Below are positions 7,329-38,507 of a DNA stretch of 64,000 nucleotides, piece after piece (the first letter of the stretch is position 1; the number at the start of each line of letters is the position of its first letter). Where the stretch lies: NCBI GenBank assembly GCA_973895155.1, contig OZ316894.1, positions 19,444,805 to 19,508,804 of the forward strand. Direction: 5' to 3'. The position numbers and the translations under genes are program-made. The notes below the pieces were generated by a model, which made no database searches, was not told where the DNA came from, and worked only from the letters and a program-made list of their open reading frames with translations. The DNA comes from Marsupella aquatica. Taxonomy: Eukaryota; Plantae; Marchantiophyta.

Positions 7329-7616
7329 TGTTGGAGTTCTATTGTCGTTAGGACATTACGCCCACCTTCTCTTGCTCTGATTACTGCATAAATTTAGGAG
7401 TAATTACTAGCCGTATATGACACTGTCGTCCTTGCTTTAGTAGTATGGGACAAGGTCTGAGTTGGCCCTTGTCACGTTGCATTGACCTTGTGTGTGATAG
7501 ACCATATTATCAGGAGCTTATCTCCGCTTGGACTCATGCGGGCTGTGTGCCGGTCTCTCTCATGTATTTATCTCCCTCTCCTCTGTGAGATTATCAAGTT
7601 GTTTAAAACTTCAACA
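7329..7616 (+). repeat. 5' LTR of copia element 1
   Basis: Direct repeat of 13260-13547, followed by a tRNA-iMet PBS. Confidence 0.97.
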
Positions 7617-7660
7617 TGGTATCAGAGCCATAATCTAATACCTAGTAGAAGCCAGTCACC

Positions 7661-12559: not shown

Positions 12560-12644
12560 TCCTCGTTCTTATAACGGTGAATACATCGTAATCAGTTTCC
12601 CATACAATAGAGTAAGGAGTCCTACTCAACTAGTCTGCTACACC

Positions 12645-13019
12645 TCAACGAAGTCTAACACTTTCACGGACTAGATAAATCTCTGCCTCCTGACGTGACC
12701 GAAAGGATTTAAATCGGTTTCCTCTAAAACCGCTTACTAGTGGCTCCACTTCTTCCCATGTAGTGTATATCCCAGGACGGCGCCCTCGAGCAATGGCATA
12801 GTAACGACGAGGCGGCTCTATGCTGCTCCTCACCACATCGTCTGCATATGCTCGAACCACGTTATACTCACTGCCTCCACTGGAGACTGGTACTCCCAGT
12901 GCTACAGGACCGATCGGTCTCTCATCAACTTCACTCACGTGACCATCTGCTACATCAAGCATTGTTGCGTCTGCAGTAGGTCCTCTCTGTCGACCTCGGT
13001 GCAATACATCACGCAACAT
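12645..13019 (-). CDS. Antisense ORF in the copia 3' region encoding an RNase H1 N-terminal hybrid-binding (caulimovirus viroplasmin VI-like) domain
   Basis: RRYYAIARGRRPGIYTTWEEVEPLVSGFRGNRFKSFRSRQEAEIYL matches the YYAVxxGRxxGIYxxWxExxxxVxGFxGxxFKSFxxxxEAxxYL signature. It lies between the RNase H stop and the PPT. Confidence 0.8.
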   Translation of the reverse strand: MLRDVLHRGRQRGPTADATMLDVADGHVSEVDERPIGPVALGVPVSSGGSEYNVVRAYADDVVRSSIEPPRRYYAIARGRRPGIYTTWEEVEPLVSGFRGNRFKSFRSRQEAEIYLVRESVRLR

Positions 13020-13259
13020 TCATGCAAAGGAGGCAAATGAAGTCCAACATTGCCAACAGCAGCACCAGTCCCGACTCACGTAGTGTCATGGCGTTCTGAT
13101 CCATCACGATCTCTAACTCTTCGGGATCTCACGTTCTTGTTGCATGACACTCACCTTGGCTTCCGCTCCAGTCATAGACCTACCTGATATATGTTCGTTC
13201 ACATCTTGCGTGTCTCTGATCAGATTGTCTCATCTGAGTAAGATGTGGTCGAGAGGGGG

Positions 13260-13547
13260 TGTTGGAGTTCTATTGTCGTTAGGACATTACGCCCACCTTC
13301 TCTTGCTCTGATTACTACATAAATTTAGGAGTAATTACTAGCCGTATATGACACTGCCGTCCTTGCTTTAGTAGTATGGGACAAGGTCTGAGTTGGCCCT
13401 TGTCACGTTGCATTGACCTTGTGTGTGATAGACCATATTATCAGGAGCTTATCTCAGCTTGGACTCATGCGGGCTGTGTGCCGGTCTCTCTCATGTATTT
13501 ATCTCCCTCTCCTCTGTGAGATTATCAAGTTGTTTAAAACTTCAACA
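13260..13547 (+). repeat. 3' LTR of copia element 1
   Basis: Direct repeat of 7329-7616, preceded by the PPT and followed by the TSD. Confidence 0.97.
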
Positions 13548-14244
13548 TATCACTCCGCTCCTTTCGTTTAGTCTCCATATCTCTGGTCTATCTCGGCCTT
13601 TTCGGCCGTCTGTTTTATGTTTTTCGATGTTCTAAAATTAATTGCCCAACCCATCCCGCCAGTGGCACAGCGTTCTGCCTGGGCTGAGTTTCGCTTTCGC
13701 TCTCGCTCTCGCCCCACCCCACCCCGCCCGGCCCGGCCCGGCCCCCGTCCAAAACGAACGAACCGTCCAATGTCTAGCATGATTGAAGAGTAGCCTTTCA
13801 GTTGAATAGATATCTCAAATCTAGCTTGATCTTGGAATGTTTAGATATGGCAAATTTAATTGAATAGCAACCCATGCAGAGATGGGAATTTGTAGTGAAG
13901 CTATTGACGCATCAGTATTCTCAACAGTTTGTTAAGCTCGATCCTGACGGCCGAGATCAGGACCGCTCTCAATTATGATCAGAATCCAGACAACCCGAAT
14001 GCATGCACATGCTAATTAAGGGTTTCTGAATACCCTGGCAAACGAAGTCCGGCCATGCAATTGTCATCACTTGCCTATGGATCCTAATGACAAAATTAAC
14101 CACCAGGCAATCGCAGCATTAGGAGGCCACAACGCTCACCTTCCATCGAATGACTAGACTTTTTGTACAGGCGAAAGCCTTTGGAACTAAGACGAAGTAT
14201 ATGATCAGGTTGAGGATCCCCATGCCATCGTGATGGTTATCTTC

Positions 14245-17200: not shown

Positions 17201-17321
17201 TCGCATCGGTGCTTCGATTCAGAGAATCCACTCCACCTAGAAGCCGGATCCAGACTAGCAATACTGAGATAAGCTGGAAGTATGCTGAGAATGCAGGGAA
17301 TGATGAATAACTGGACGCCAT
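14245..17321 (-). pseudogene. Intronless LRR receptor-like kinase with a WAK/WAKL-type kinase domain (copy 1), 1-bp frameshift in the kinase
   Basis: Signal peptide, LRRNT cap (PCDWIGVRC), ~18-20 plant LRRs, LCGxPL cap, TM, then kinase GEGGFGTVY, VAIK, HRDVKSANILLD, DFG, GYIDPEY. One G is missing at ~14927 relative to copy 2 (AAGGCTTG vs AAGGCGTTG), which splits the ORF; this could also be a sequencing error. Confidence 0.9.
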
Positions 17322-18919
17322 TTTTGCACTGTGTAGAACTTGTCCTGACAAATATACTCTCAAGTTTAGACACAGCCTATGTACTCAATTTGTACAGATA
17401 GCCTAGATCTCAACCACTAGTAGAGATACTGTCGGAAGTGCGCAAGTTTTGCTGAAATTCCGCAAGAACGACTGGACATGGGAAGTGCGAACTCTGTTTC
17501 TTCAATTGTGTTGTCCAGGGTGACTTCAAGTCCCCTCTCGACAGCGCTGGTTTATCAATCAGGCCCGCTAGTATCGTAGGCATCAGGAATATCTAGATCT
17601 GGTAGGACGACCAATTCAAACCACGTAATCGTAAATGGCAGCGTCATTATCAGAGGAGATAGAAAACTGAGTCGCTGAAAGAGCTGCGTCTCAGTCGTAA
17701 GACAGTGGAGAATTATGGAAAAGCTGGATGGTACGTTGTCTAGAGAAGAGGGTGATGCAGTCTATTCCCGGTGCTCTCGATTACGAGATTGCTAATATGG
17801 TGTGTTAACACCGATGATCAAAATGAAAGGATCAGAAGCTATTACTCTATATCGGAACTAATCAAATAGAACAAAAGGATATCGAAAAACCCGCGCATTA
17901 AGATTCTGAACATTGTCGTTCTATCCGGGATCCGCCATGCCAGAATGACATATGCTACTTCCTCCTCAGACTTCCCAAGAATCTCCCCCTTGAATAATTC
18001 TATTAAACCCGTCACATTCATTGTTTAGAATTATTTAGAATTAAAGAATCAATCAGAAGTTGAAAAATGTATCTCTCGTTGTTGTCTTCTCCACGTAGTG
18101 TGTCGGGTGATGTTCCTTTGTCAATTTCTATTTGACTGCAATATTGTGACCGATCGGAAAGATCAGGGTCTACGTTAATTGGAGATTCTTCTTATAGTGT
18201 CACATGGTTGTATCCATCCTGGTCATCCCAACAAACGTGTGTGTCCATGAGGGCTTTAAGTTCAATCTATCACGGTTGTCTGAAGTAGATGACAAAATAA
18301 TCTGAAAAGCGGGAGGAGCAGTGTGGTGAAGAACAGTACTGTTCCAGAAGTCCTGTACTGTTCCAGAAGTCCTAGTACTGAAGTCCATGATAGTACTGTT
18401 CCACAAATGTGGGACAGAAAGGTTCCAAAACTGACGCACTTTACAAGCCACCAAGTCTCTCTCATTCTGGGCGCCATGGAGAATAGTTTGCTTGCCCCTC
18501 CCTGCCGTGCATCAACCCCAACCCACACCCGTAAGTAAGTCTTTCCACAGTCAGTCTAATTTGCAATTTATTCCAGCCCACTGTGGCTTTTTGGCGATTA
18601 CTGTTCGGTGAAGTAGTTTTGCTTCCCCGCCAAGCTCTTCCCTGCCCTGCTCCCTGCCCTGCCTGTACAGCATGGCAACGATAAGTAGCAGACAAGGATG
18701 AGATCGGACTAGTGATTCATTTTGAGCTTCAAGGAACAGAGCATCCACTGCCACTTAACGGTGCATCTCCATATCTGCTACAGCTCCCTAGTTCAATCCA
18801 TTCCCGAGCTGCATGGTTCGTATACTTGCTGTTTCCCCTAGATTTGTAGTGAGGGGAAGAGGAATGGGGAGGTTTCATTTAGTCAGGTGACTGGGCGGGC
18901 GGTCTATGAGAACAGACTT

Positions 18920-21900
18920 ATGGAGGAGCACTTTATTCTGAGGGTGCCGGCTTCCGTGGCAGAGCGCTTGAATCGGCTGCTGAACGAGAACCCAGCATCA
19001 CCTTCAGACAACTTGATTGATCTGAAGGCCTCTGGGTGGTGGGGAAGGTGGACCTTAACTGTGGTGATGTGGCAAATTGTCGGACCCAAAGGGAATCCAC
19101 ATTGCAAAAACCAAGCTTGGAAGCAATAGTTTGCTAGGCTACTATCACACTTTCAGGTGGATGGAGGTGGTGACTGACTAACTTTTCTAGGTTTGTCAGT
19201 CACCACGCCAATTCCTTTTTCCCAAGTTTTGTCGAGTGCACACTGTTGTTTCCCACTAGATCGTTGAGTTTCATCCAATGTTGGATGACTCTTTTATTGA
19301 ATTTCCTCCAATTTGCCTATGAAGGAATTTTGTCTCGGTTTATTATCCTTAAAGTATCGGGCGTGGCATATTACTTGTGGCTCTGTCTGGAGCGCTTGTT
19401 GCAGAGGATGGGCGGACTGGGAACATTGTAATTGGCAGTGGCACGACAATAAGCTTATAAAAACTGCGGATGTGGGGCAGGTGTCTCCAGCTATCCATTT
19501 CACTCCACAGCGTTGGCGTTTAATTTCATCAAAGATAGCACTTTAAATGAACCGAAGCAGTCCTGGTCTTCATATGCCGTCAAAGATTCTGATGCCACAT
19601 TGGCAACTTCATGGACTTATGAGAAGTTTAGAATTTCCAAAATCACTAAACAATTGTTGGAAAGATTGCTATCGGCATGTCAAATTGGCAATTTGTGGAC
19701 TTACAGAAGAAATTCAGACTTTGCTAAATCACTAAACAGTGTGGAAACCAATGTTATCGCAAGACTGTGGACACCCATAGGCGGCTATCAGGCATCAGTG
19801 CCCAATTTGAGCCATGTTGGTCCGAAGGAGAGAAGTACCCAAGCCTGTCGGCCGACTTCGGTTCCCTCTTTCTTCGATTGTGCTTTATTTGAAGGTCTTC
19901 CGTTTTTGGTATGGTAGTCAAGGTGCATTCTTAACTATTCTCGATTTCTCAACGAGAAGGGTCTTACTTCATTGGTTGGTTTGTCACAATGCAAAGGCTT
20001 AAGCAACTAATTGGTTTTGCGTTGGTTGACGTGTACATATATATCCTCATTGAGTGCAAGAGATGTAGATGTCCTCATTGAGTCCTATTGTTGGCACGGC
20101 TTTACTATCTAGTGTACATTAACTCCTATAAAGAAGGGTTGTGTCGTTTCTTGAAGTGGTGGTCATTCAAAAATTACAGTTTCTGGTGTCAAGTGAGATA
20201 ACTCAAATATGCAAAGCAAAAGTGAGATAACTCAAATATGCAAAGCAAAACTAAGAGGACAAATAAAAATAAAGCCAAGGCAAAAAATTAAGGGAGAAGT
20301 ATCCTTCTTGATATTCCTCATCACTTTAGCTTTCCTTTTGATGTCCTCATTGTACTTGCAAGTATACACTTTATCCAATCCCTCCCTGTCCGTTGTCTTA
20401 TTAATTTGTCCCAATGTACTCTAGATGTCCATGCAATGCCCTGGGCCCTCAGTTTATGAAATAATGAAACATACATGCAAATGTCTGACGGGCATTTTAA
20501 ATCTATTTTGAAAATAATATTAGAACAAGGTTAGCATGAACTAGGGCACCATATATGCGTAGTCTAGGTTAGAAGAAATGAAGATTGTCATAAATTTGGT
20601 TGCCCATTACATTAGTTGGTGGGGTATGTAAATACTCCATGATAGATGTTAGCATTTTATTGGTCCACGTGTTTTAGTCTCATTGGTTTAGGGTATGTGA
20701 TAGGGTCAGTCTCTCATACCAATTCTCACACAAGAACCCTAAACCCCCTCCCCAACCCTCTCGTATTTGGGTGTAACCTGGGTTTTGGGTTTTTGGAGCC
20801 ATTCAATGGGAGGTTGCCCTAGAATGGACGGCCCAATGTGAGTAAGATGCAGCTTATATGCAGCCCCTAAACCTGGCTTGTTTCTATAACAAATGAAGGG
20901 TATTTTAAATACTCAAATATCAAAGATTATAATAACCTAAGAATATTTTATATAGGACTGAAATTTCTTTTTAGAACGAACAAAATAGATTTAAATGTTC
21001 ATCCAAAATATAACAAGGGGTACATACTTGGGGAGGCTTTGGTCACAAGTATATCTCATTACATTTCCCTTAGTGAGGGCCCAGGGATGCAATACAAGGA
21101 GAATGTACATACCCATTCCGCTTGGTACTCATATGAAATCATTTTATGAAAACAAATATAATCAGTAAAATTCAATACATATATTGATGAGATAACAAGG
21201 GGTTAGGGGCCAAAGTACTCTTGGCTGGGGTAACAGGGTTTAGGGATACATATATAAAGTGACAACCACATTATCTTGACAACACCAAAAACTATAATAA
21301 AATGTTGCAGCACCTTTTTTGCCGTGCTTGTCTTTTGAATTTGCAGGACCAAAAAATAAAGAAAATGAGAATGAGAAAGGAAAACCAAAAAAACATTTAC
21401 ATTTAGTGTGAAGGAAAGAGTGACACCTAAGCATGAAAAAGGATCTGCCATATATGATGCACAAGAATGAAGTCACCATCCATGCATATGAAATGTTACT
21501 CCCCCTACCATTCTTTACCACTATAATACCTATCCGGGATTGTCCCTTTACAAACTAATTAAAAATCACGAACCAATCTTTGACCCTTCATCAAAATATT
21601 GTTTTTTAACACAATCAAATCTATCCATACACACCATCTTAAATGAATCATGTCTGTCTAAACTGCCTTTTAGCTTGCCTACACCTGTCTTGTAAAGATT
21701 TTAGGGCAGTTCTTTTTCCTTGCCTTGTCATTTTTTTTTCATCTTGACATCTTTTCTTATACTGACAACTTTATTTTACCATGAAATTTTTTCTCACTCT
21801 CAACATCTTTTCTCTTTTCAATATATTTTTATCACCTTGCCATCTTTTTTCTCCTTGACATAGTTTCTCAACTCCATTTCATTTCCTCACCTCAACGTTT

Positions 21901-22828: not shown

Positions 22829-25119
22829 CTACCTTATAACACTCATCTCCACCCACAGGTTCGGAAGGTCATGGTCATCTTCCTCATCGTCTTCAATGAT
22901 AGATTTAATAACATCCAATTTCATTGTGCAAGTCAGCTCCACCCACAAGATCTGAAGCTCTGTCCACACCTCATTCATTGTAGGCCTAGCTTTAGATCGC
23001 AGGTTCACACATTTCATCGCCAATCTTCCGACATTCAAGATGGACTCCCTCCCATGGTCATTGTATGTCTCTATAAGCGTTGGATCAATAATTTCTTGCA
23101 GATCTCCTGCTGTTATCTTCGGACTAGCTAAGTTCACAAGACTGCTGTCATCGCCACTCCTGCTCAAGTCTAGCGCAAGCTTTGCTGAGATGAGCTCCAG
23201 CAGAACCACACCAAAGCTAAATACATCACTTTTATCAGTCAGTCTATAGGAGGTATAGTACTCAGGATCTATATAGCCCATGGTACCTTGAACTGCAATT
23301 GTTGAGACATGAGTGGCTTGCAAAGGAGCCAATTTCGAGATTCCAAAATCTGCCACTTTAGCGTTAAGGTCCTCATCTAATAAGATGTTTGCTGACTTGA
23401 CATCTCTATGATATATTGGGAATGCAGTTGCGGTATGAAGATACGTCAACGCATTGGCAGTTTGAACGGCAATGTTAAGGCGTTGTTGCCAGGTCAAACG
23501 ATTAGCCCCAAATTTGCCATGAAGATGATCTTGGAGAGTGCCATTTGAAACAAACTCGAACACAAGAACAGCAGCCTTGTTTTCCATACAGCAACCAAGC
23601 AGCTTCACAAGGTTGCGGTGGTTCACTTGGGACAAGATCCTCACCTCATTCAAGAATTGTTCCTTATCCTTGTCAGAACCCTCTCGCTTGCTTCGCTTGA
23701 TAGCTACGATGGTTCCATCGTGGAGTTTGCCTGCGTATACTGTCCCAAAGCCTCCTTCTCCTATTTGTGCACTCTCGGCAAAGTTGTCCGTGGCTTTCTT
23801 AAGCTCCCGAAGCGGCATTAGTGTTGCCGAATCCCGCTCCAACAGAGTCTTGATCAGATCCGCATCTTGTTGGTGCCTTTTCTGGTACACTCTCCACCGC
23901 CAGGTTGCCGCCAGACAACTTCCCATAGCTACCGTGAGAGCTCCTCCGATTATGAGAAACAACTCCCACCATGGTACACGTGATCGAGCAAAAATCTGGG
24001 GAAGGCCCTGAATGGGGCATGCCTCTAGGGGAAGACCACAAAGTCCAGCATTTCCAGCAAAGATGTCCGGATTATAGAAGCTACTGTTTGGTGGGATTGT
24101 TGGAAGAGATCCTGATAATTTGTTATCTGACAAATCGAGCCCCCGTAGATTTGGAAGCATCAATATATCTGGGGGAACAGGCCCACTTATATCATTGCCA
24201 GAAAGCTTCAAGACCTGGAGTGATGGCAAACATGAGCTGTTGAAAGTTGAACCCAAAATCTCCCCTGTCAAGTGACTGTTGCTGAGATCCAGAACTTGGA
24301 GCAGAGTTAGAGTAACAAAGCATGCACTAGGAACAGGAGTTCCGGAAAAATTGTTGCCTCCAACTCGGACGTCCGTGATAGACTTCCAGCTCTGGAGCGT
24401 AGCCGATATGGGGTCAGGAATGGCTTCCGACGTAGTCCATCTTAGATTGTTGTTCTGAAGGTTTATGTATTGAAGACCGTAGTATCCAGGATCACTATTC
24501 GCAAGCTTTGTGAGGTCCCCTGTGAAGAGATTATTTTCAAGTCGACAGTCCGTTGTGAACCCAAAACCGAGACCTCCAAAAAGGACGTCGACTATGTCTC
24601 CTGAAAGGCGATTATTTTGAAGCCACAGATAGTTGATGGAAGAACCTGAGCTACTAAAGATATTTGATGTGATAGGTCCACTCAATTTATTGTAACTGAG
24701 ATCAAGAACAATAAAACAAAGAAAGGTTGCACCATCAAGAGGGATGCTACCAGTAAGGAGATTGTGCGATAGATTAAGTGTAGGACAAGTCTCAGAATTA
24801 AGTCCAAGCGAATTCACTAGGAGATCGGACGGGATTTCTCCCACGAAACGGTTCTGCGATAAATCTAAGGCAACATATTGTAGCTTCGAAAATCCCTTGG
24901 GAATAGTCCCTGCCAATTGATTGGAGGAGAGGTTTAGGAGCTGCAAGTTCAGCAAATGCATCATACCAGACGGAATCCCTCCCGTTAGCTGATTGTAAGC
25001 GGCGGACAAGCTCAATAGACTGCTATTTGTGCCGACGAACCAAGGCTCCTCGAAGCCTGTAAAGTTGTTGTTGTCGAGCTTCAACTGGACAAGGTTTGTT
25101 CCCTTTGGAAGAGCAGGGA
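22829..25119 (-). pseudogene. LRR-RLK with WAK-type kinase (copy 2), 5'-truncated
   Basis: Paralog of 14245-17321 with an intact kinase frame. Homology to copy 1 stops at 25119 (...GGAAGAGCAGGGA), so the signal peptide and first LRRs are absent. The ORF-track start at 25228 is a TTG in unrelated DNA. Confidence 0.88.
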
Positions 25120-25344
25120 ACAAACTCTTGTCCAGTTTGTTCTCTTTTAGTTGATATTTTGTTTTTTGAAATTCCCAAACAAGACCACTCACACTAGGGA
25201 CATTCTCAAAATGCCAAACTTCTTTCAATATGATTCATGAATTCATGAATTCATCATTCACAACATTTATGGTTTGCCATGAACTCAAATAATAATAAAT
25301 TGCAAATACTAATGTTTGACAAAATTGCCAAAGATTGGTAAATC

Positions 25345-28300
25345 TCAATTCCTACCATTCATTTCTAGAGTAACTTCCATTGAAGTTTCTTCTTGATAAT
25401 TTCTTACTATGCTACCTTCACCTTCTTGGTCTTTCTCCTCCTTGAGAAATTCTGAGAGTCGGATTTTAATACGATCTATTGTTTTCTTGTAAAGAGTATC
25501 AGACCTTGTTAGCATAAAATTATATGCAAACACCGTAGTTGAAGACAGATCAAGGTCTTGATGAAACCAAACTGGTTTCAAGGTTCCCTTGCCTCGTCCA
25601 CTTTTTTTCTTCTCGTAACTCAATACTTCTGGCAGATATTTTCCTTTCCAAGGGTCAGATCCTTTCTTTGCTGCATGCCACAAAACTGAGATAATCTTTG
25701 GGATGTGAGCCTCATCGCGAAGAACAATTTTTTCCACTTTAGCCACCCAAAATGATTGAGACTTCTCTCCGGCCACAGAAATAAATGTGTTGATTTCCAA
25801 ATCCGAAAAATCACCTTCCATATTCTCCTTCTCTGCATCTATCTTTTCTTGATTTCGATATGGACCAACATAAATATCTCTAGTTGGACCGTACACTCTC
25901 TCTTCAATTTCTTCCTCATTCAATATAGTTGTAAGAGGTTCAGCTCCAAGATCAGCTTCAACATTTGTATCCCCTTTCGCCTTGGGCCATTCAAATGGAG
26001 AGATCAAAGGTCTTTCTTCAAGCAAGAGAGATTGATTGAATTCTCTTTGTTCCTCAAAAAAAGAAGTCCACCAAACAACTTCTTCTTCAGAGAATAATAT
26101 CTGAGCTGCAAATATACCTTTCTGAATTTCATTCAAACAATCATCCATTTCGGACAGGGTCATTTTTCCCGAAGATGATATGTGAGCTTGATTTCCAGCC
26201 CTTCCTTCATCTCGTTTCTTGTCTCCTTTCTTCACAAGTGGCATCCCATCCGAGCAACCAATCACCTTTAGTGGCAAGTCTTCTTTCAACAATTTAACAC
26301 CTCCTTCTGGTTTCCAAATAGTGTCGGTGGAAATTTTCTTCCCCCATTGTGTTGGAACTTGATCATCTTCACAAGCAAAAGAAATTTTGTACTGGTGATG
26401 GAATGTAACATTTCGTATCCTTTCTCTGATCATAGCAGGCTCTGAGAAAGCAAATTTTCGGAAATCGTATGTCTCATTTAAAAGGGTAATTTCAGGGTGA
26501 GGTTGGTAAGACTCTCGAATAATCTTACATAAACTATCATAGGTAAAGGCCTTAAATCTTCCAAGCCTTTTTGAAAACCTACTGAACATCTGATCTATTT
26601 GATCATGGGTATGTCCAACTAAGAGGAATCCAAGTTTGATTTTTCGAAATACCTTTTTTTGTACCAGCATGTGAAGATATGTGAAAAGTAAATTGTTTTT
26701 GTTTTCCCTACTTGTATTGTCAAGCTGAAGGTAAAAAACAGGTGGAAGGCCCCCATACTTCTCTTGATATTCTAGGAATACTCTTTGTAAAATAGTAATG
26801 GTAAGATTTCCATCATTATGGAGAATTGGATAATTAAGGAAAACCCTAGAAAATAGTGCTCCGTGGAAAAGAAGACAACCAACCACATGCATTTGGATTA
26901 AGCAGGACTCATCGACGGATTTTGGAGGACGTGGCCAATGGGGTAATCTAGTCATTTTTTGATCCATTCCATCAATCACAACTCCCAAATATTTTTCTGG
27001 GTTTGTGAAACACTTCTTTCGATGCTTTGCCAGTTTTTCCCGCTCTTTTGATTGTTGCTCTCGATGTTTTTGTAACATTATTTCTCCTCTCCCTGCAATC
27101 AATCCAAAAATGGTCGAGCAAAGTTGTTAACTTGAAATTCATTCCTAATGTTTAGCCATTCCTCAATTGATTTCCTGACAATTATCTAATACAAAGACAT
27201 GTTCAAAACAACAAAATAAAAATGACTTACGTTTTTCAGTTTCGGAGACTCCTTTGTCTTGAATGGTTTTGAATTCTTCACAGTCCGCACAAGCACTAAA
27301 ACGATTCACAGGAGGAATCTTCACGTGCCCAAAGTCTTGTGACCATACTTTCAAAAATTGCCGATATGATATTTTGGATGACTCGTCAGTGATCACATAG
27401 CTTGAATCATATATTTTCCGAACTTCTAGCTTGGAATAATTATCAGGCAAATGTGAAACATCTTTATTTGGTAGAGTCTCCACACGAGTCTCAAAAAACG
27501 ACTTCAACCAAGAACTCAACACTAATGTTCTCACAGATTGAGGTCGACCAACCGGTCTAGGATAAGCAAGATCTTGATTGCCTAGCTTCTTGATCCTATT
27601 CAATCTTTCATTTCCTACACAAAAGACCATCTTGAAAGATTTTCGACACACGTCTCTTTGTCCAATCATGTATGTGACATTGGACCTCCCCTCTTCATTT
27701 CCGTCTTGCTTGACGAGCCACTGCAAAGATAAAGATCGATCCTGAGATTTTTGCCTCAAAAACTTTGAGCGTGCTTCACGAATTTGTTTTGGTGAAAGAC
27801 TCAGGAGACAATGACGTTGACAACAATACTTACGATTTGTCTTCTTGATATCCTCGTCTGTCATCTTTGTTTCACACAAGCGGAGATTTGACGGTCGTTT
27901 ATTAGCCATCATAGGTCTCTCTGCATGCTCTCCTTCACTCTCAGACGAAGATTCTTCGATTGAAGATGATATCTCCACAAGTTTATCGAGTTGGTATGCA
28001 GACAAGCCCCTCCTCACCCGCCCGCGAGGACTCAATGGCTCCTCCTTCACTCTCAAAAGGAGTGAGTTTGATCGATTTCCATCTGAATCCCCAAAGAAAC
28101 CACCTTGGGTTGACTCTCTTGCCCTCTTGTTTGGAATCTCTTCAAAGATCTTCTTCTTGCCCTTGTTGTATCCTAACTTAGATCCACTTCCAACCTCAGC
28201 CAAACGATCAAAGTTCCCTGGAGATCTTCTCAAATTGATCCTCTCCTTGTTCGAATTCATCTCATTTCCAAGAGGCCTCCTTGTTTCCGCTCTCACTCCT

Positions 28301-28806
28301 TCTTGAAATCTGAAGGATGTAGGACGAGAATACTCAATCTCTTTCATTGGTGCATGTTGCACACCACGACTTTCCCGTAGTGCACAAAAATCCACTTTCG
28401 GGGTTTGACTGGGCCTGTTTGGCACATCTCCAGATCTGGCCTTCATGAATTCATGAGTCCTCTTTTTCACATCTCCACTATGTTGAGGGCCTACAGAATG
28501 CACCCCCAAATTAACCCCCTTTTGAGAAGGATTCGATAATACTTGACGGCCAGGGGGACTTGTACTCTCAGATGAGTCTGAAGACTCAGAAGGATCACTC
28601 ACACAAGGACCAAATAATTTTTGCTTCATATTTGGTACACTAAGAGCCTTGACTTTCAGCTTACTCATTGGAGTTGGGGGAGGCATCTCCAAAATAGTGG
28701 TTTTGCTAGGAGCATCTGGAGAAGTAACAGGACAGGGACAGTTCGGGAAGGAAACATCATCCGAAATACCATCAGAATAATCGTCCGACTCATAACAGGC
28801 TGCCAT
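25345..28806 (-). CDS. Sola-like DDD/E transposase, spliced, ~1107 aa
   Basis: Exons 28806-27231 and 27092-25345; the GTAAGT...TTGCAG intron joins them in frame (EKR|RGEIM). Cys motifs CCQRHC, VCRKSF, RFSACADC. Catalytic-type motifs VIDGMDQ, YLQLDNTSRENKN and FLLVGHTHDQIDQMFS. No stop in the spliced frame. The superfamily call is from motif recall (DUF7869-like), not an HMM search. Confidence 0.8.
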
Positions 28807-29883
28807 TTCAAAATATGCACAAAACTCACAAGGGAACACCTAAAACACCAAATGAACTCAAACTGAAAAATTGAAATGAGATAGAGTCATGAATAAGAAG
28901 CCCCTTTTATAGGTTTTTGAAAATAACTCAAAATATTAATTAGCAATAAAATTAAGAAATGTGCCACACTGTTTATTAGGAAGTAGTGACAAGGAAAGAA
29001 ATCTTTCATGAGAAAATAATTTATTGTTTCTCCAAATCTCACAGGTTAACTTATGTTTTCAGGTTTCTAATACTCATAGAGTTCTTGGAGACTTGGATAA
29101 CTCATTGCTGAAGTCTTCTCCTGAAATATTGTCAACAAAGGTGTCATAATTTTATTTTTTACTAAAAGCATATGTTTTCATGCCAACATCTTAAGATAGT
29201 GTATCAGTAATGCATTGGTCATTTTTACCCCACTTTTTTGTTCATGTTTTTGCATACTATTCAATTGCAAGCAAAAATGTCTTAGATGACCCCTGTTTTA
29301 GGCATTTTCTTGGTTTTTACTTGTATTTCTTTTCCCCGTTGTATTGGTTATTTTGGGCACAAATTTTGACTTTTTACTAGATTCTTTCAAAATGATACTT
29401 GATTCCCTTTCATGAATTCATGAAGGGTTACGACCTTCCTGGATTCGTGAAGTGGAGGTGGCAAAAGGTTCATGAATTCATGAACCCAAAAATTGGAAAT
29501 TGCTAAGTTTGGGACAAATTGGACTGTCAGCTGCTGGGAGTATGGGCGTGCATCTGCAAAGCGTGACGGGAAAGGAAGCTCGGCAAAGAGCTATGGTGGC
29601 CTGATGTTTGGTGCTGTGGAAAGTGCTTCCCTCAGTGATTGGTACGTTCTGAATAGGAATTGAATTGAGTCTTTGATTGAATCCCTAAACTGGAACCGAA
29701 AATCAGGGCCGGACCAACATCTGGTGCAACTATCTAATCTCGGAGTGGAATGGAAGCTCGAATGGAAGCTTGCAGTGGACTGGAATAGCGTGACTGTTCA
29801 GGCGCACATCAATCGTGGAAGGGAGGGGAAGAGTTGGCTTGCGAGTTGGGGAGAGTTTTGAGTGAGCGCAGCAGGCGAGGCAG

Positions 29884-30335
29884 CCGACAATTGTTTTCGG
29901 GGAAGAGAAATTGTCAAGCTGGGGAGGGAGGCGAAATTGTCGAAGGCCAAGGAGTGAGGCAAAATTGTCGAAGGCCAGGGGAGTGAGGGATTGTCGAAGG
30001 CCTGGGAGAAGCAATTGTTTTCGGGGAAGAGAAATTTTCGAAGGCTAGGGAGGGAGGAAAAATTGTCGAAGGCTGGGGAGGGAGGCAAAATTGTCGAAGG
30101 CCAAGGAGTGAGCAGAAATTGTCGAAGGCCGGGGGAGTGAGCGGAAATTGTCGAAGGCGCCCGGGGGAGAAATTGTCGAAGCGTCAAGGGAGAAGCGATT
30201 ATCAAAGGCCGGGGGAGAGAAAGAGTAAAATGCTAGGGCGAGAGAAATAGTCGAAGGCCAGGGGAGAGAAATAGTCGAAGGCGCAGCGAGGAGAAATAGT
30301 AGAAGGCACAGGGAGGAGAAATTGGTGAAGGTCGG
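29884..30335. repeat. Array of ~15 AAATTGTCGAAGGC-like motifs, period ~23-29 bp, purine-rich spacers
   Basis: Seen directly. It lies between the divergent transposase and methyltransferase start codons. Confidence 0.9.
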
Positions 30336-30755
30336 GGGAGGGAACAAGAGTCACCGGCCGAGGGAGCGACCAACGGAGGTGGAAGGGAAGAGCCGTCGGT
30401 AGAAGGGAGGCGTGCAGAGAAAGGAGAATTAGAAGGGGGAGAGACGATCGGGAGGCCTTTGGAGTCGGGACCAAGAGAGGGACAAACTACATTAAGTTGG
30501 GAGGGATCGATCGGCTCGGGCATCGGCTAGGGAGGTGGAGGAGATAAGCTAAGCCAAATCAGGGAGAAAAATACCTAAGACACACTTCTGAGCGGGAATA
30601 ACCATCTAGGCTCGGGCGCTGCAAATTCAACTTCTGACTCCACTGTTAAGGTAAGAACCTTGCTTCATGAAATCATGAACATAAATTCTACAACTGAACT
30701 TGCCAAACGAACAGGGCTAACTTTGAAATGTTGGACTTGATTTCAGGAAGTCAAG

Positions 30756-33700
30756 ATGGTTGAACCAAAATCACAGGAGAAGGTGTTAGACTCAATTTTT
30801 GTTGAGCATCCTTTGACAGATTTTGGAAACTCTTCTTGGACAATATCATTGGGGACAGAATCGTGGAAGAAACCTTTTTTGATGTTGTGCATCTACGAGA
30901 CCTTGCCTTCTGGAGGTCTTGGTTGGGTGAATTATGGCCGGATTGATGTCTTTTGATGAGGGGGCGATGTACTCAATATGATTATCACAACAAAGGAGAC
31001 GTCTACACTGATTGCAGTTGACATTGAGAGATTTTCTGGAAGAGCTGCGCATTGTTACTTGGCTGATGACATTGAGATGATTATTGAGAAGGTGAAGAAT
31101 CTGTCGGCAGAAGAAAGCTATGATGAGATTGCACAGCTCATTGCTGGTTATGTGTTTGAACATCACGCCAGCACACTGAAGAGTGCAATTCGAAAGTCTA
31201 GGGAGATTCTTCGAAAAGCAACAGAGAAGAGTGCCAGTGCCCGTCCACCAAAGTCTGGTCCTTCTTCTGCTCCTTCTGGATCTCGTCTGAGCTCTGTCCC
31301 GGCAAGAAAGATGGTTGTTACATCTCCAATATCTGGTGGTGGTTCACAAAATGTAAGATCGCAAGAGGGGACAACCGTGACTGGAGGATCAGCACAGGGC
31401 ACTGCCGGTACTCGGACTTCATCAAAGAAACGTGGACCAGAGGGTTCTCAAGGTGCAGGACCAACTCCACCAAAATCCAAGAAGCAGACATTGGAAAAAG
31501 TCCCCACTCATTTGGAGCAGAAGGCTCAATCTATGTCCATGGATGCTCGGGTGATCTACCAGGAAGGGATTTTGATGAGGTGTGGAGTTCAAGAGGAGAC
31601 AGTCACTATTGACATTGGACAACTTCACCCACCTGTCCGTGAGAAATCTTTGGAGTTGCCAGTGTACCAAGTAAGGCATATCCAGCCCTACTTTCTTACA
31701 CAATTGACCACAAGGATGAAAGCAACTGGAGCTAGTCCACTAGCAGCACCTTTTGTTCTCTTGGTTGATCCCAAGGAGTGCCCAACTCGAGGTGATTTTG
31801 ATTTCTCAAAAAAGAATGAGTACCACTATTACGTGATTGGGGGAAATCATTTTGCTTGTGCAAAGGCAGACCTGGCATTACAATTTCCCAACAACAAGTC
31901 CTACAGGAGAGTGCAATCTTGGATCTTTGCAGGCTTATCTATCCAGGAAGCAAGGAACTTAGCTTGGAGTCATAATATAGACTCTGAATTTCGTCAACAG
32001 ATGAGCACCATCCAAAGAGTGAATTACATTCACATGCGATTTGTGGAGAATGGATCTTCATCAAATGTTGATTTCAAGAAGGAGTGTGCCACTGAAATCA
32101 ATCTAAAGGACTGGGGTGTACGTAAAGATTCTGAGGTTCTGAATGCCAATGATAATTTATTTCAGTTGGCATTTCGTAAGGATCTTGTTTGGTCTTTCAT
32201 ACGACAGATCTTTGACAGATGGGAGAATTGTGAAATAAAAGGACAGAAAGGAGATAAGACCAAGAAAAAGATATCCAAGTCTAGAGATGCTAGAATGTTG
32301 TGTGAGGATATGAAGTTGACTGAGTGGAGACACATGCAGGCATTGAAAGATCCAGACATGATCTGTCCAGTGTTACAAAGGGTTTTGGCAAAGGAACTAT
32401 CTCTTCAAGAGATGGGACAGGAATTTCAACGACACAAATTCCAAATGCAAGTGCAAAAAGCATTTCTTACCTGCCTTCATGAAGAGAGTTGGAAGAATTG
32501 CAAAACCAAGTACCCAGAACACTGCACTGATAATGTGCTGAAGAACTTTGTTCCTGTCTCCCAGACTTGGGTAAGTTTATTTGAGATAATTGATTGTGCA
32601 TGTTTATTTGAGATAATTTATTGTGCATTTGTTTTACAATTTTATTCTTGAGTATGTAGGAATCTAATACCCAAATTGCTTCTCTCAGAAAGACAGCAGC
32701 TCCCGGAAAAAGAAAGGAGAGAGTGAAGAAAGCAAAGAGTTGAAGTCCTTCCCAGATAAGTTCAATGCGCATATTGCACAAGCACAGAACTGGTGGGCAA
32801 TGAAGACATCTTGCCGAGAGACCCAGGGAAGTGAACTCCACCCTAATGCTTTTGAGCATCCACAGTTTGGGGATGTATACTATGATATCTTTATACATGA
32901 TGCTCAACGGTTGCACGAGGTAGTCCCATCACGAGCTTACACATTGGCTTTGGCAGATATTCCTTATGGGTTTGGAATGACTGCTTGTCTTCACGAAGAC
33001 AATGTTGGATGGGGTGTGGAAGAGGTGACCAAGATGGTTCAGTGTTTCAAGGTTGTCACCAAGGCCAATCTTTGGCGAATTATCATTCATCATAGTATTG
33101 ACCAGTACGATGCTATCAAGACTGTCTTGAAAGCTGAGTGTAATGGTGGTTTCCAGAATTGCATTTGGTAAGAAATATTTCAAAACATGAATATTTTTTT
33201 TTGGTATTCATGATTTCATGATGTTGGATTTTGAAATAAATTCATAATGAAAGTTTTGGTTTTTGTAGGGTGAAAGACAATGTTAAGAATGCAGGAGGTG
33301 CAAGGCTTAACAACAACTTTGAGTGTTTTACCATCGGCTTTCACAATCAGGATGGGAAACGATCTTTGGAGCATTTCAATTTTGAGACTAATGAGTCTCG
33401 AAATAATGTGGTTGTGTGTCCAGCTGTGACCAATAAGTTGAAACACAATGGGGACAATAAGATGGTGAACTTTTACCAGAAGCCAAGAGTATTATTGGAT
33501 TGGGAAGTTACCCATTTTAGCCAGGTTGGAGACTGGGTGCTAGATATTTGTTCAGGGTCAGGCACAGGATTGTCTTCCTCTTTGGCACAAGGAAGACATT
33601 GTGTTGCTGTAGAGATTGATGAGCGCCAGAGCAGTGTCTTGAAAGGGAGGATTCTAAACCTGGTGGACAACATTGAGGAAGATGACGGCAAGGGCATGGT

Positions 33701-33827
33701 GGATTCAGATGTTGATGTTGAAGAGACCATTCTACCAATACCAGAGATAGGAGTTGAAGAGGAGGAAATCATTGGACTTGACTCTTCAGGAGTTGTAGCA
33801 AGTGTTGAGGAAACAAGAGATGCTTAG
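30756..33827 (+). CDS. ParB/Srx-like domain fused to a beta-class N6-adenine/N4-cytosine DNA methyltransferase, spliced, ~950 codons (two in-frame TGA at 30954-30959, possibly pseudogenised)
   Basis: Exons 30756-32570, 32689-33167 and 33269-33827 with GT-AG introns in matching phase (QTW|KDSS; NCIW|VKDN). ParB-like motifs: IDIGQLHPP..YQVR, PFVLLV, YYVIGGNHFACA, EARNLAWSHN. MTase motifs: IV LALADIPYG, CIWVK...E, X QKPRVLL, I VLDICSGSGTG, GRHCVAVEID. The order IV before X-I is the beta class. Confidence 0.8.
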
Positions 33828-35260
33828 ATGAGGATATTTTTGTAAGACTTTTTACTGTTGTTTTAGCTACAAAGAACTAGACTTTAATGGCAAGTTTTGA
33901 GATGTCAATGGCCTTTGAGCCTAGACTATGATATTTATACTTGTTTTGAGAGGTCTATTCTATTAAAATCAGGTTTTGAATATATTTTGTCTCAAACATT
34001 GCTGTAAACTCTAGTTTAAAAATTCAAAGGATGAATGTCAATAAAATATGCTGATTTTAGTGCCTATTTTAGGACTCTATTTCTCAAAATCATGATTATT
34101 TTGAAAAAGGAATTAAGGCCTTAGACCCATCCTTTAAGGCTTTGTGTTTATATGACTGCTGTGTTTAATGACCATACTTATCTCTGAGTATATAGTTAAG
34201 ACTTAGGTTTGTCTGTGTTTGCAATCCATGACTAATTCGTGATAAGTATCGATCAATGGCTTAACTAGATAAAGTGAATGACTTGGTATATGTGTATTTA
34301 AAGAGGCCTGCACATTTTGTTACCATACTCGACGTTGTACAGACTTCACTTATGTATGCTATGACATTGGCCTTGAATGGGTGTTTTTCCTATGAATTTA
34401 TCTCTCTTGTCTTTTGTAGGGTTAGAATTTGTGATCTTGGGGATGTGGTTGTTGCAGGTCCTACTAGTGTTAACAATGTAACGGTTGTTACCCATGCATC
34501 AAGTCACGGTGTTAGGCAAAGCAGCCTGGCTCAAGAAGGAGGCATAATTGCTACCCTCTGGATTTGGTTTCCCCCCTTCCTTTGGAGGTCAATGGGGCCT
34601 TACATCCTGTCTTTGACCAACACGGACATGCATGTGCAGTCCTTTAGATCTGAAGAGGACGGTCTAATCCCACATTATTTTCCATACCTTCTGTAGATGG
34701 TGGATGTCTGACACAGTACAAAGGGCTCAAGCATTCAAAGGGCTCAAGCATTTACTAGTCTTTGAGAGCTTGGAGCTGTTAGTTTTAGGGCTTCAAGAAA
34801 TCTTTGTGACCCTCTTAGACACATTACAGAGGGCTCAAGTCAAGGCTGTTAGTTTTAGGGCTTCTAGATCTTCTGGTCCCCTCTTAATATGTGGATTTTT
34901 CCAGAGCTTCACCAAGCTTTTCGGCTTGCGGCTTAATTCTACTTTAGAGCCAATTCCCATGTGACTGCCCTGAAGGATGTGGCCCTTAGTACTAGCTAAA
35001 CCCTAGGCAAAAAGCAAATCTAGATTTAAAACTGGATCTGCTTAAGTGCAAAGTCTTTGCTTTTGTTCTATTCTGAATGCAAAGGTCAGGACCTTAAGCT
35101 GCTGGAAAGTCTGGCCTTTGCCCTTGAAAGTCCACAATCTTTGTCCTCAGGCCTGGCACAGGAGGGGGTTCAGGCATGTAAATGGTGTCTATTATATGCA
35201 GCCATGAGTCAAGTTGAGAGCCACATTCTTCAGGACTCAGTACATGCAAGTTGGGCCTTA

Positions 35261-35621
35261 GGGCCACTTTACAAGACGGGCGCGGCAATTTGAGTGCTTT
35301 CTACCAGGGCTGTGACAGAGCCCAACTTTAGTGGTACGGTAGGACTCTAGACCAATCCAAGGCAGGAATCCTAGGAGGAAGCGGGCTGCCCATTTTTGCA
35401 CCTCCGGAGGTCTGATAGTCTAGTGCCCGGATGAGAGTCCCAAGCCGGCTGGCCCGAGCTGATCCATACCAGAATGCAGGTTCGGTTATTCCCGCAGCTC
35501 AACTTGCCGTGCCAGTCTTCTAAAGCAAGGAGCGCCCGGGCAGGCTGAAATAACGGTTGTGATTGATTCGATCATGAAAAAAGAGGGACTAAATTGCCGC
35601 GCCCGTCTTGTAAAGTGGCCC
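35261..35621. mobile_element. PIF/Harbinger (Tourist-like) MITE, 361 bp
   Basis: Perfect 31-bp TIR GGGCCACTTTACAAGACGGGCGCGGCAATTT and a TTA TSD at 35258-35260 and 35622-35624. Confidence 0.92.
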
Positions 35622-36112
35622 TTAGTTCCTTTGCTAACTCGTTGCTCTTGGCTCTTCCACTAGTTTTCCCCTCTTGTAGGGGACTGTGGGGCTGGCCTGG
35701 GTTTTCCCTTGTGCACACTTCTTCTTGGGACTAGTCTTGTGCACACTTCTTCTTCGGATGAAGCTGATGACTTAGATAAAATGGATTATCAAAGAATTTA
35801 TGGTTGCATGAGATCTCATCTTTAACAACATATTTGAACATTTATTTGTTTAAAATTCACTCGAAGGTTAACTCCATCGGGTTTAGATGAAGATCTTCAT
35901 GGTGGTAACCTTTTTGCTATTGTTGGGCGTTTTCTTGGACAAAACTTTGGTATTGATGGTAAATTGGTGGTGAACTATGCTTGCACCGTGGCCTGGGGAT
36001 AAAACCGATGGACAGCAAAGATGAAGGTCTAAATACACAGCAGTGCGGCATGCACTTGTGAAGAAGTAGATTGGGTGAGGATCGCAGTCCAAGGTTGTTG
36101 ATTCAAGTCATT

Positions 36113-36820
36113 CAATATGCCATCATCAACTTGATCCAATAGTGCTTTTGGAGTTCCGTGTTCGGTCTCAGGGGTTCTGTGTCGGGACCTTTCATTGTTA
36201 ACATTATTTTCCACTCCACCGTCCTCACTACCTGCCTTTGTCAATGTTTGACTCAGGATTCCTTATGGGGTCAATGCCAAAAAATCATACGAGTACCATC
36301 CTACCAAAATTACAGACTTACAGTGTTTAATTGCATTCCCACCTTGCTGCAATCTGAACAAGACTTTACTCCTGAAATGGTGGAGAAGATCATAGTTATG
36401 GTGTTGTTTCCACAGGTATTCAAAGCTAAGGTACTATCGAGGTCATACACCAGATTCCAGCCACTTTTTGTACTAAATGATAAAGAAGAACAGTGCCTTC
36501 CAACAAGGTTTTAGAGACAGGTGCTTGAGGAGTCTAAGAATTGGGGTGTCTTCGGCTCTCTGTTCCAGATTGCAGTAGGGTTGGGATGCAGTTCAACAGT
36601 GTCAATTTACAGTTCTGGTAGAACGATACTCACATGATTTTTCGACATTGACCCCCCAAGAAATCCCGAATCAAACACCGGCAGAAGCAAGTAGCGAGAG
36701 CAATGGAGTGAAAGATGATATTAACAATACTATGAACAATGAGAGGTACCGACACAGAACTCTTAAAGTCAAACACAAAACCCCGAAAGCACCATTGGAT
36801 CAACGTGATGATAGCATATA
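36113..36820. repeat. Diverged inverted repeat (~250-bp arms, ~200-bp spacer)
   Basis: 36113-36360 is the diverged reverse complement of 36562-36820. Shared blocks include CAGATTGCAG, CATTGACCCC, CCGACACAGAAC and TTGGATCAA. Confidence 0.7.
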
Positions 36821-37071
36821 CCAAAGCTACTACTTACCAGTACAAAGCATTTACCAAAGCTGCCACTTACCGGTACCGTAGCGGAGACTTGGGATGCCTC
36901 TCCAAATCTGCTACAGCTCTCGTGCTTCAATCCAATGCAAGCCGATTCAATTCAACCCATTCCCGAGCTGTAGTGTTCATATATTTTCTGTTTCCCATAA
37001 TTTTGTTGTGACAGAAAGTAGAGGTTTAATTCAGTCAGGTGACTGGGCAGGCAATCCCCGAGACTAGAAGG

Positions 37072-37125
37072 ATGGAGGAGCAGTTTATTTTGAGGGTGCC
37101 GCCTTCCGTGGCAGAGCACTTGAAT
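37072..37125 (+). pseudogene. TAF7: TAF7 5' fragment (second copy)
   Basis: MEEQFILRVPPSVAEHLN. The upstream region ~36890-37070 is homologous to ~18763-18920. Confidence 0.75.
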
Positions 37126-37126
37126 A

Positions 37127-37434
37127 AGCACCATGAAAAGATGCATTGTGTTTCTCGTGGTAGCCATTGATACCAGGAATCTGAAAACAGCACCATGAAA
37201 AGACGCATTGTGTTTCTCGTGGTAGCCATTGATACCAGGAATCTGAAAACAGCACCATGAAAAGACGCATTGTGTTTCTCGTGGTAGCCATTGATACCAG
37301 GAATCTGAAAACAGCACCATGAAAAGACGCATTGTGTTTCTCGTGGTAGCCATTGATACCAGGAATCTGAAAACAGCACCATGAAAAGACCCATTGTGTT
37401 TCTCGTGGTAGCCATTGATACCAGGAATCTGAAA
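37127..37434. repeat. 62-bp minisatellite x5
   Basis: Unit AGCACCATGAAAAGACGCATTGTGTTTCTCGTGGTAGCCATTGATACCAGGAATCTGAAAAC, near-identical copies. Confidence 0.95.
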
Positions 37435-38507
37435 TGACGCTTTGGTTCTTTTAGGGATTTGTTTTACTTCCGAGACTGTAGATCGAGAATTAATTGCAGC
37501 TACAGCAGTTCAAGTCACACTGACGAATAGGGACTGCCATAACATCGAATTCGATGCAATAACGAATCAACTGTCCTCTCCGTGTACTACTCCGTATCAA
37601 TGGTCATTTCTGTCGATGGACGGATTTCAAGCCATCCTGGTAGTCGACCACAGCTTGGGAGGCATGATCCTAACTTACTAGTAGAAGCATATATCTTCCG
37701 AAGAACATGTCTGTACACAAACAATACTCGACTGTTTCCAAGAGTGGAAACTACCGGAATGATCACTGGGAGAAAAATTTCATGGGATATCTTCCTCAGC
37801 TTCAATTGGGATCCCTAGTCACCTAAGGAAGTTATATGACTCAATTAACAAGCCGTGCTGGTAATGTCCAGCAAAGGCTTACAAACACGCACTTGCACCT
37901 GCTTTGCCATTTCACTTGAAGCATACGTGCCCTCGTTGTACTGTCCCAAAATTCTTGAAAGTTGTACCTTCCAGTTGATTGTTATATGAACTCCATGAAC
38001 ATCATACTTTTTCACTCTGAACGAACCTCAAGCGAGTTCTTTGACAATTCACCTGACAGTCGTCCTTTGATGCTGGCCCAATTCGCAAAGCAAACGAAGG
38101 CTTTGTCGAGGACAATCACCTTTCCTCACTAATCAGTGGGCACATGCAACCAACTGTTGCGATAAACATTGGCGTGGGTTTTCGTTTGTTGTAGCCCACA
38201 TCTCACCGTTTCCGCTCATCAATGGAATCGTGTCAATGAGTTGCGGGACTACCAAATGCTCCGGATCATTTGGTCCTTGGCTGAAGTCTTCACAACGGAA
38301 TAATTCATAATTAGTTGGGCTGTGTGAACAAATCGAATGGCCAGATCTGTCCTCAACCTTGTCCTACAATAGCTTTCAACCACGCCAGTCTTACTGAATT
38401 TGTTACCAATTAGCGGCCTCTATTTTCAACAGCTGTTCAGGACCTTCGCGAAATTCGACACTTCTCCGTCATTTCCTTTTCTCACTTCGTTTCACGGTTT
38501 CTTTTTG

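What the first reader, a model, noticed from the sequence alone, without database searches (positions are those of the whole stretch)
25138..34100. Candidate new system: a Sola-like DNA transposon carrying its own prokaryote-type amino-DNA-methyltransferase
Seen: two divergent intron-containing genes ~2 kb apart, a ~1107-aa DDD transposase (minus strand) and a ParB-like+MTase gene (plus strand). They share a repeat array and a recurrent palindrome, and occupy the place of the missing 5' end of RLK copy 2. Established: plant DNA methylation is normally 5mC from MET1/CMT/DRM. Amino-MTases are rare in eukaryotes, but bacterial-derived 4mC enzymes are described in bdelloid rotifers (N4CMT) and Marchantia (DN4MT1). 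Some TEs carry chromatin or DNA-modifying cargo (VANDAL VANC proteins, fungal KDZ elements with TET/JBP). Inference: this is a mobile unit that marks its own DNA with 6mA/4mC, for self-recognition, control of transposition or anti-silencing. It could also be a vehicle by which amino-MTases enter plant genomes. I do not know of this pairing being described, but could not search.
Basis: partly seen in the sequence, partly recalled or inferred. Interest (0 to 1): 0.92.

Follow-up and report, generated by a model that had tools for sequence, protein, structure and literature searches.

The report
Plant Sola transposon carrying ParB-methylase
This is a damaged copy of a multi-copy DNA transposon, probably from a liverwort, that carries a bacterial-style DNA-binding-plus-methylase gene which likely binds and marks a conserved 14-letter palindrome in the element's own DNA, a design already reported in seaweeds and seen here in land plants.

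Summary
25142-34148 is a ~9-kb repeated element. An intact 1107-aa DDD (DUF7869) transposase and a divergent ParB-fold + beta-class amino-methyltransferase gene lie under one read-depth plateau in 3 of 4 runs laid. The pairing recurs elsewhere: consecutive Riccia sorocarpa genes, and, more weakly, metagenome locus L001 and one JGI contig. The same design (Sola1-1_Ec32) and the self-marking idea were published for Ectocarpus in 2025. New here, as far as my searches reach: the land-plant range, and a candidate operator, TCATG-N4-CATGA. It occurs 6 times in the element (0.02 expected), 0 times in the other 55 kb, and in all 3 related loci, including the same intron. This copy is damaged: the methylase gene has two stops, and the left end is replaced by a fold-back junction where the RLK is cut. 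Likely mechanism: the ParB part binds the palindromes and the methylase writes 6mA there, setting the shared promoter. No activity, expression or TSD is shown. DN4MT1 kinship is not supported.

The parts
25142..34148 (.). Sola-like DNA transposon copy, left end missing (about 41 bp, inferred)
   Evidence: Depth plateau over both genes in X1, X2, X3; drop to single-copy depth after about 34148
25116..25141 (.). Fold-back filler: inverted copy of RLK bases 25084-25105 at the RLK/element junction
25345..27092 (-). Transposase exon 2 (DGMDQ 26973, QLDN 26727, GHTH-x3-D 26616-26593)
   Evidence: DUF7869 E 2.5e-50; D566, D569, D650, H686, H688, D692 at least 97% conserved among 98 homologs
27231..28806 (-). 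Transposase exon 1 (low-complexity N-terminus, then Cys-rich region)
   Evidence: Open frame; residues from about 250-310 onward align with full-length homologs
28807..30755 (.). Shared divergent intergenic region with two palindromes and the array
29888..30350 (+). Tandem array, 25-28-bp unit (core AAATTGTCGAAGGC); its core is absent from the L001 and L002 upstream regions
   Evidence: low depth here
30756..32570 (+). Accessory gene exon 1: N-terminal domain (two stops at 30954-30959), linker, ParB fold (GGNH at 31839)
32689..33167 (+). Accessory gene exon 2, methylase motif IV DIPY at 32956-32967
   Evidence: spliced form matches annotated C. fissa P0001
33269..33827 (+). Accessory gene exon 3: QKP 33477, motif I DICSGSG 33543, VEID 33609
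25235..25248 (.). Palindrome TCATG-N4-CATGA, site 1 (near left end)
28443..28456 (.). Palindrome site 2 (transposase 5' coding region)
   Evidence: same placement in L001 (346)
29410..29483 (.). Palindrome sites 3 and 4 (29410, 29470), intergenic pair
   Evidence: pairs 40 and 42 bp apart in L001 and L002
30665..30678 (.). Palindrome site 5 (probable 5'-UTR intron of the accessory gene)
33208..33221 (.). Palindrome site 6 (last intron); also at this place in L001, L002, L003
34110..34148 (.). Inferred right terminal repeat, ending ...GTGTT; next four bases TATA (TSD candidate, untested)
   Evidence: depth peak, contig ends, loose ends
22832..25119 (-). LRR receptor-like kinase copy 2, 5' part (about 250 codons) missing; host gene, not part of the element

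Best explanation
This is a damaged copy of a repeated Sola-like DNA transposon that carries, opposite its transposase, a ParB-fold plus beta-class methyltransferase gene, whose protein likely binds the element's TCATG-N4-CATGA palindromes and would write 6mA there to set the activity of the shared promoter. Shown: both genes in one repeated unit, the fold and motifs, purifying selection, the conserved palindrome and its layout. Inferred: a dimer reads the palindrome through the ParB helix-turn-helix part; the adenine marked lies in or beside the CATG halves; the mark helps keep the element's own genes on, or times them, against host 5mC silencing; intact copies supply the protein in trans to broken ones like this. 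Odds: accessory gene is true element cargo 0.93; palindrome is this protein's site 0.7; it methylates there, as 6mA, 0.55.
For: Depth in X1 is mostly 160-270 over both genes against 21-24 for single-copy contigs; X2 and X3 show the same plateau; X6 (another organism) is high only over the transposase core, the ParB core and methylase exon 3. R1sor_010795 (DUF7869) and R1sor_010796 (ParB + N6_N4_Mtase) are consecutive tags on one contig. L001 has a divergent ORF with the transposase's N-terminus 1.0 kb upstream of the gene (23 of 52 identical from Met1, E 0.009). Eight related C. fissa proteins lie on 7 contigs. Model pLDDT 91; Foldseek best ParB/Noc E 4e-5; VIA PadC Z 9.3, rmsd 3.2, 99 aligned. 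Beta-class motif order; best solved relative CcrM E 0.006. pN 0.18-0.31 against pS 0.75-0.85. Palindrome: 6 in the element, 0 in the other 54,993 bp, 4, 3 and 1 in L001-L003; of spacers 0-12 only 4 is enriched; L002 changes both inner bases and stays palindromic.
Against: No binding, methylation or expression data. This copy has two stops, L001 has one in the ParB exon, and some relatives have decayed motif IV (DIPS in 3 C. fissa proteins, DFPC, DIPH), so catalysis may be dispensable. Motif IV is DIPY, not DPPY. The match of the helical part to ParB DNA-binding domains is weak (Z 3.8-4.2). Of 7 other named Riccia, Chara and Adiantum ParB proteins with tags and 2, none is next to a transposase tag seen (an incomplete list). 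CpG is strongly depleted in the gene (O/E 0.32 against 0.60 for the window) and the stops sit where L002 has Arg codons CGA-CGG, so host 5mC reached this family. The widened motif was drawn after seeing L002. Contig depth is no copy number.
Confidence: 0.55

Rival explanations
1. The protein is a sequence-specific binding partner of the element (like the DNA-binding partners of Harbinger or CACTA transposases, recalled), and its methylase part is a binding or dimerising module whose catalysis does not matter.
For: Non-canonical DIPY; relatives with DIPS on 3 C. fissa contigs and DFPC; N6_N4_Mtase found in only 10 of 45 longer relatives at E<=0.01, though many are partial gene models.
Against: Motifs IV, X, I and II are kept in the window, L002, P0001 and Chara-like relatives; D-x-P-Y in most and DPPY in P0314; methylase exon 3 has the lowest pN (0.18); 5 of 6 sites are internal, not in terminal arrays.
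Confidence: 0.25
2. The palindrome is bound by the transposase or a host factor; the ParB-methylase acts on another target, for instance methylating CATG or the TCGA array broadly.
For: One site is near the left end; 11 TCGA lie in the array; no experiment ties the protein to the motif.
Against: The site is kept inside this gene's own last intron in all 4 loci; there is none near the right end; a spaced 14-16-bp palindrome suits a ParB-type dimer (recalled); the array core is not conserved in L001 or L002.
Confidence: 0.13
3. The methylase gene is a host gene or a chance passenger beside an ordinary Sola copy.
For: Only one copy is in hand; no TSD; most named homologs could not be tied to a transposase.
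Against: Shared depth plateau and right terminus; pairing in Riccia and L001; the same design in Ectocarpus; scattered multi-copy homologs.
Confidence: 0.07

Closest known systems
Sola1-1_Ec32 of Ectocarpus (PMC12477816; passages; supplement rows; figures not seen)
   Same: Sola transposase plus an opposite-strand gene for a ParB-like + 4mC/6mA methyltransferase (1104 aa there, 950 here); self-binding and self-modification already proposed; its end CGGTT resembles ...GTGTT here.
   Different: 21.5 kb with 282-bp TIRs against about 9 kb; brown alga against land plant; no binding motif in the passages read; sequence homology to it not tested.
Plavaka (EnSpm) elements of Bostrychia (bioRxiv 10.1101/2025.02.11.637652; passages; supplements not seen)
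   Same: Accessory N6-adenine methylase (PF01555) and ParB-like genes; inverted-repeat arrays proposed as ParB sites.
   Different: Other transposase superfamily; methylase fused to SET and ParB fused to a 2OG oxygenase, in separate genes.
Beta-class bacterial and phage methyltransferases (CcrM, M.MboIIA, M.RsrI, M1.HpyAVI)
   Same: Circularly permuted motif order; best sequence and fold matches.
   Different: DIPY, fused behind a ParB fold, with introns, in a eukaryotic transposon; target unknown. The fold match came from a low-confidence model (pLDDT 48).
ParB/Noc/KorB proteins
   Same: ParB N-terminal fold followed by a helical domain, aligned over about 280 columns.
   Different: GGNH in place of the arginine patch (recalled as GxxR); CTP use unknown.
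MpDN4MT1 (bioRxiv 10.1101/2021.02.12.428880; passages) and bdelloid N4CMT (search listing only)
   Same: Prokaryote-type amino-methyltransferase in a eukaryote; DN4MT1 is also in a liverwort.
   Different: DN4MT1 has TSPPY and is a host gene pair; no SPPY/F among the 155 proteins P0177-P0331.

Membership tests
Sola superfamily | DDD transposase | tested here: met
   Conserved D566/D569, D650, D692 among 98 homologs; feature from PMC10741241. Which three are catalytic is inferred.
Sola superfamily | Sequence kinship with a curated Sola (Sola1/2/3) transposase | not testable with these tools
   No curated Sola sequence was held; DUF7869 = Sola-like rests on recalled motifs; no paper holds DUF7869 or PF25273.
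Sola superfamily | 4-bp target-site duplication | not testable with these tools
   Left end missing; TATA follows the inferred right end; no genome held.
Sola superfamily | Terminal inverted repeats (11-1124 bp) | tested here: inconclusive
   Right terminus inferred at 34148; no partner in the window at up to 9 mismatches of 30; a deep contig has 41 unseen letters before 25142.
Sola1-1_Ec32-type element | Accessory gene on the strand opposite the transposase | tested here: met
Sola1-1_Ec32-type element | ParB-like domain fused to an N4/N6 methyltransferase | tested here: met
   the fusion is one annotated protein in P0145, P0178, P0179
Sola1-1_Ec32-type element | Direct homology to the Ectocarpus proteins | not tested
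   Their sequences were not among tool results.
Beta-class amino-methyltransferase | Motif IV before motifs X, I, II | tested here: met
   DIPY 695, QKP 835, DICSGSG 857, VEID 879
Beta-class amino-methyltransferase | [DNSH]PP[YFW] catalytic motif (PMC4738411) | tested here: inconclusive
   DIPY; family varies D-[ILFAP]-P-Y; tolerance of the change untested
Beta-class amino-methyltransferase | Methylation activity and target | not testable with these tools
   Needs assay or kinetics data
DN4MT1/N4CMT-type 4mC enzymes | SPPY motif | tested here: not met
ParB/Srx superfamily | ParB N-terminal fold | tested here: met
   PadC Z 9.3, rmsd 3.2, 99 aligned; the 9 rows with Z >= 5 are ParB/Srx-fold proteins
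ParB CTPase clamps | Arginine patch (recalled) | tested here: not met
   GGNH with conserved His (H365, 95%) in 46 sequences
ParB CTPase clamps | Helix-turn-helix DNA-binding domain | tested here: inconclusive
   KorB, ParB, SopB DNA-binding domains at Z 3.8-4.2, among unrelated helical rows

The most novel reading that the evidence does not exclude
A lineage of Sola-like transposons spread over charophytes, liverworts, ferns, Ginkgo, an amoeba and marine animals runs its own bacterial-style epigenetic circuit: a ParB-type clamp loads at a family-specific palindrome, spreads, and lays 6mA over the element's promoter. It would be a sequence-specific source of 6mA in land-plant genomes and an anti-silencing route separate from VANC.
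Probability: 0.25. Interest if true: 0.85.

Novelty: new member of a known kind. Interest (0 to 1): 0.55.

Why it matters
The published idea that such transposons bind and mark their own DNA had no named target in the passages I read. A palindrome kept at the same places across four loci about 55-65% alike in protein gives a concrete substrate, so the idea can be tested with existing long-read data and a simple enzyme assay. The family reaches land plants (Calypogeia, Riccia, Adiantum, Ginkgo by name), where DNA methylation is mostly discussed as 5mC, so it could explain local 6mA over repeats and offer a small site-specific methylase.

Tried and rejected
No genome held, so copies, TIRs and TSD could not be aligned. 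No RNA holder listed. No relative in viral contigs: 61 pattern matches, 0 confirmed. Metagenome scan: 382 matches, 3 loci, none long enough for the transposase core. Clean insertion into the RLK: rejected; a 182-bp, 78% match between RLK1's upstream region and 36951-37125 may be a dispersed repeat. DN4MT1 kinship: rejected on the motif. Right end at 34469: rejected; depth is single-copy at 34160-34345 in X1 and the 34362-34469 peaks have their own loose ends. One X3 contig aligns to 34151, so the end is 34148 give or take 3. ParB domain: no Pfam, PHROG or NCBIfam hit and no PDB sequence hit; only the fold shows it. First model (P0145) was poor. Tree congruence: only three tentative pairs, confounded with host kinship, so not claimed; the transposase tree used 50 of 98 sequences, the ParB tree 46 of 65. 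The two L002 exon-3 rows were out of frame and dropped. A shuffle control timed out and was replaced by a Markov expectation and a spacer control. Bao 2009 not held; Iyer 2011 (ref 50 of the Ectocarpus paper, green-algal cases) not seen; Repbase entries such as Sola1-1_PPa not searchable and may already note a second gene in moss. Paper searches that showed no land-plant report in their listings. Sequence look-ups in earlier findings were blank.
Full report
Observation. The two genes are there as described. The minus-strand gene splices to an open 1107-aa protein with DUF7869 and acidic and histidine residues conserved in at least 97% of 98 homologs. The plus-strand gene has three coding exons and 950 codons; its splicing matches an annotated Calypogeia fissa protein, 67% identical over the last exon, and the same introns appear in L001 and L002. 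It has two adjacent stops at 30954-30959 in a region that is coding in P0008, L001 and L002, so this copy is probably dead unless a later ATG is used. The host is probably a liverwort, inferred from the nearest named homologs only.

One repeated unit. Four runs were laid on 23500-38500. In X1, depth is mostly 160-270 from 25.0 to 34.1 kb against 21-24 for single-copy contigs; X2 and X3 show the same plateau; all dip over the tandem array. X6, from another organism, is deep only over the conserved cores of both genes. Depth is no copy number, but both genes are repeated alike. At the right, X1 falls to 22.9 after the 34129-34159 bin; a deep X1 contig ends 7 letters past 34141, an X2 loose end reads CCATGTT-A there, and an X3 contig leaves the window after 34148. 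I infer the terminus at 34148 (...GTGTT, then TATA), like the CGGTT end of the Ectocarpus element. At the left, a deep X3 contig has 41 letters before 25142 that the window lacks, no TIR partner exists, and 25116-25141 is an inverted copy of nearby RLK bases. The RLK's 5' part is absent from the window. The junction is best read as a deletion repaired by fold-back synthesis that took the left terminus and the RLK's 5' part. A TSD cannot be read.

Pairing elsewhere. R1sor_010795 (DUF7869) and R1sor_010796 (ParB + N6_N4_Mtase) are consecutive on one Riccia sorocarpa contig. L001 has a divergent ORF starting MAACYE like the window's transposase, 1.0 kb upstream of its accessory gene; this match is short (E 0.009). 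A transposase and a ParB-methylase share a JGI contig length of 8915 and both sit nearest Chara proteins; sameness of contig is inferred. Nine other tagged proteins had no adjacent transposase tag in my incomplete list. A profile found 752 clusters at E <= 0.001; of 20 looked up, named members are from Chara (3), Riccia (4), Adiantum (2), Ginkgo, Clastostelium, Holothuria, Ptychodera and Actinia. Transposase homologs are named from Riccia, ferns, Chara, corals, urchins and amphioxus.

The accessory protein. A confident model of residues 259-604 (pLDDT 91) matches ParB and Noc (Foldseek E 4e-5) and PadC (Z 9.3, rmsd 3.2, 99 aligned); the helical half matches ParB DNA-binding domains only weakly. 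GGNH replaces the arginine patch. The C-terminal part is a beta-class amino-methyltransferase by motif order and by its best matches, CcrM, MboIIA and phage methylases. Asp at the first place of motif IV favours 6mA over 4mC (PMC4738411); no SPPY relative was found. Both parts are under purifying selection (pN 0.18-0.31, pS 0.75-0.85). Some relatives have decayed motifs.

The palindrome. TCATG-N4-CATGA occurs 6 times in 9007 bp (0.017 expected) and 0 times in the other 54,993 bp; 4 times in L001, 3 in L002, 1 in L003; among CATG-Nk-CATG with k 0-12 only k = 4 is enriched. The layout is kept: a site in the transposase's 5' coding region (window, L001), an intergenic pair (window, L001, L002) and a site in the last intron (all 4). 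L002 reads TCATGCTAGCATGA, changed on both sides and still symmetric. The narrower window motif predicted L001 and L003; the wider form was drawn after seeing L002.

Mechanism. Shown: cargo status, fold, motifs, selection, conserved sites. Inferred: a dimer binds the palindrome by its ParB part and methylates adenine in or beside CATG, around the shared promoter and the 5' parts of both genes, which fits control of transcription better than end recognition. In green algae 6mA at ApT lies near transcription starts (PMC12636532, passages), so a promoter-licensing role is my first choice; replication-timed transposition through hemimethylation, as with Dam and IS10 (recalled), is the alternative. 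CpG loss in the gene (O/E 0.32) shows that any protection from host 5mC is incomplete. Rivals: binding without catalysis (0.25), another binder (0.13), passenger (0.07).

Known. [quoted passage not shown] Bostrychia Plavaka elements carry such domains with inverted-repeat arrays. I read passages and one paper's supplement rows, no figures; Iyer 2011, Bao 2009 and Repbase were not seen and may bear on the land-plant claim. Seven paper searches listed no land-plant case.

Verdict. Real, and a new member of a recently described kind. It works like Sola1-1_Ec32; formal Sola membership (TSD, curated kin) is untested. The gain is the range and a testable target. Interest 0.55.

Noticed in passing
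window 35261-35621: MITE-like element: 35-bp inverted ends starting GGGCC, TTA on both sides, high depth in X1-X3; PIF/Harbinger (Tourist) type by recalled features.
   Followed up: partly
window 31530-32567: The ParB exon's best atlas look-alikes are fungal DUF3723 clusters (0.96). DUF3723 occurs in Starship papers (search listing only); it may be a ParB-fold accessory of those elements. Lead only.
   Followed up: partly
P0183 (Ginkgo Gb_37443): ParB + N6_N4_Mtase (E 7.6e-18) in a seed plant, motif IV DIPH; genomic context unknown.
   Followed up: no
P0013, P0144, P0145 (C. fissa): A second, divergent subfamily with motif IV DIPS on three contigs: spread despite a decayed catalytic motif.
   Followed up: partly
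P0178 (Chara CBR_g41648): 1825-aa model with two ParB-methylase units in tandem.
   Followed up: no
window 34362-34469: Short repeated segments with their own loose ends, ending ...CCTACTAGTG; probably ends of other elements.
   Followed up: partly
window 13942-17321: RLK copy 1 has a frame break near 14895-14946 in its kinase domain, so both RLK copies look damaged.
   Followed up: no
window 7329-13548 and 56818-63487: Two LTR retroelements (copia-like by eye) with LTRs 99% and 96.5% identical.
   Followed up: no
window 289-1700: Pogo/Tigger-like transposase remnant in two frames, judged by eye.
   Followed up: no
window 37065-37436 and 18792-18973: Five-copy 62-bp tandem repeat beside a 182-bp stretch 78% like RLK1's upstream region.
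   Followed up: no
L001 2851: In-frame stop in the ParB exon; L001 is also a decayed copy.
   Followed up: no
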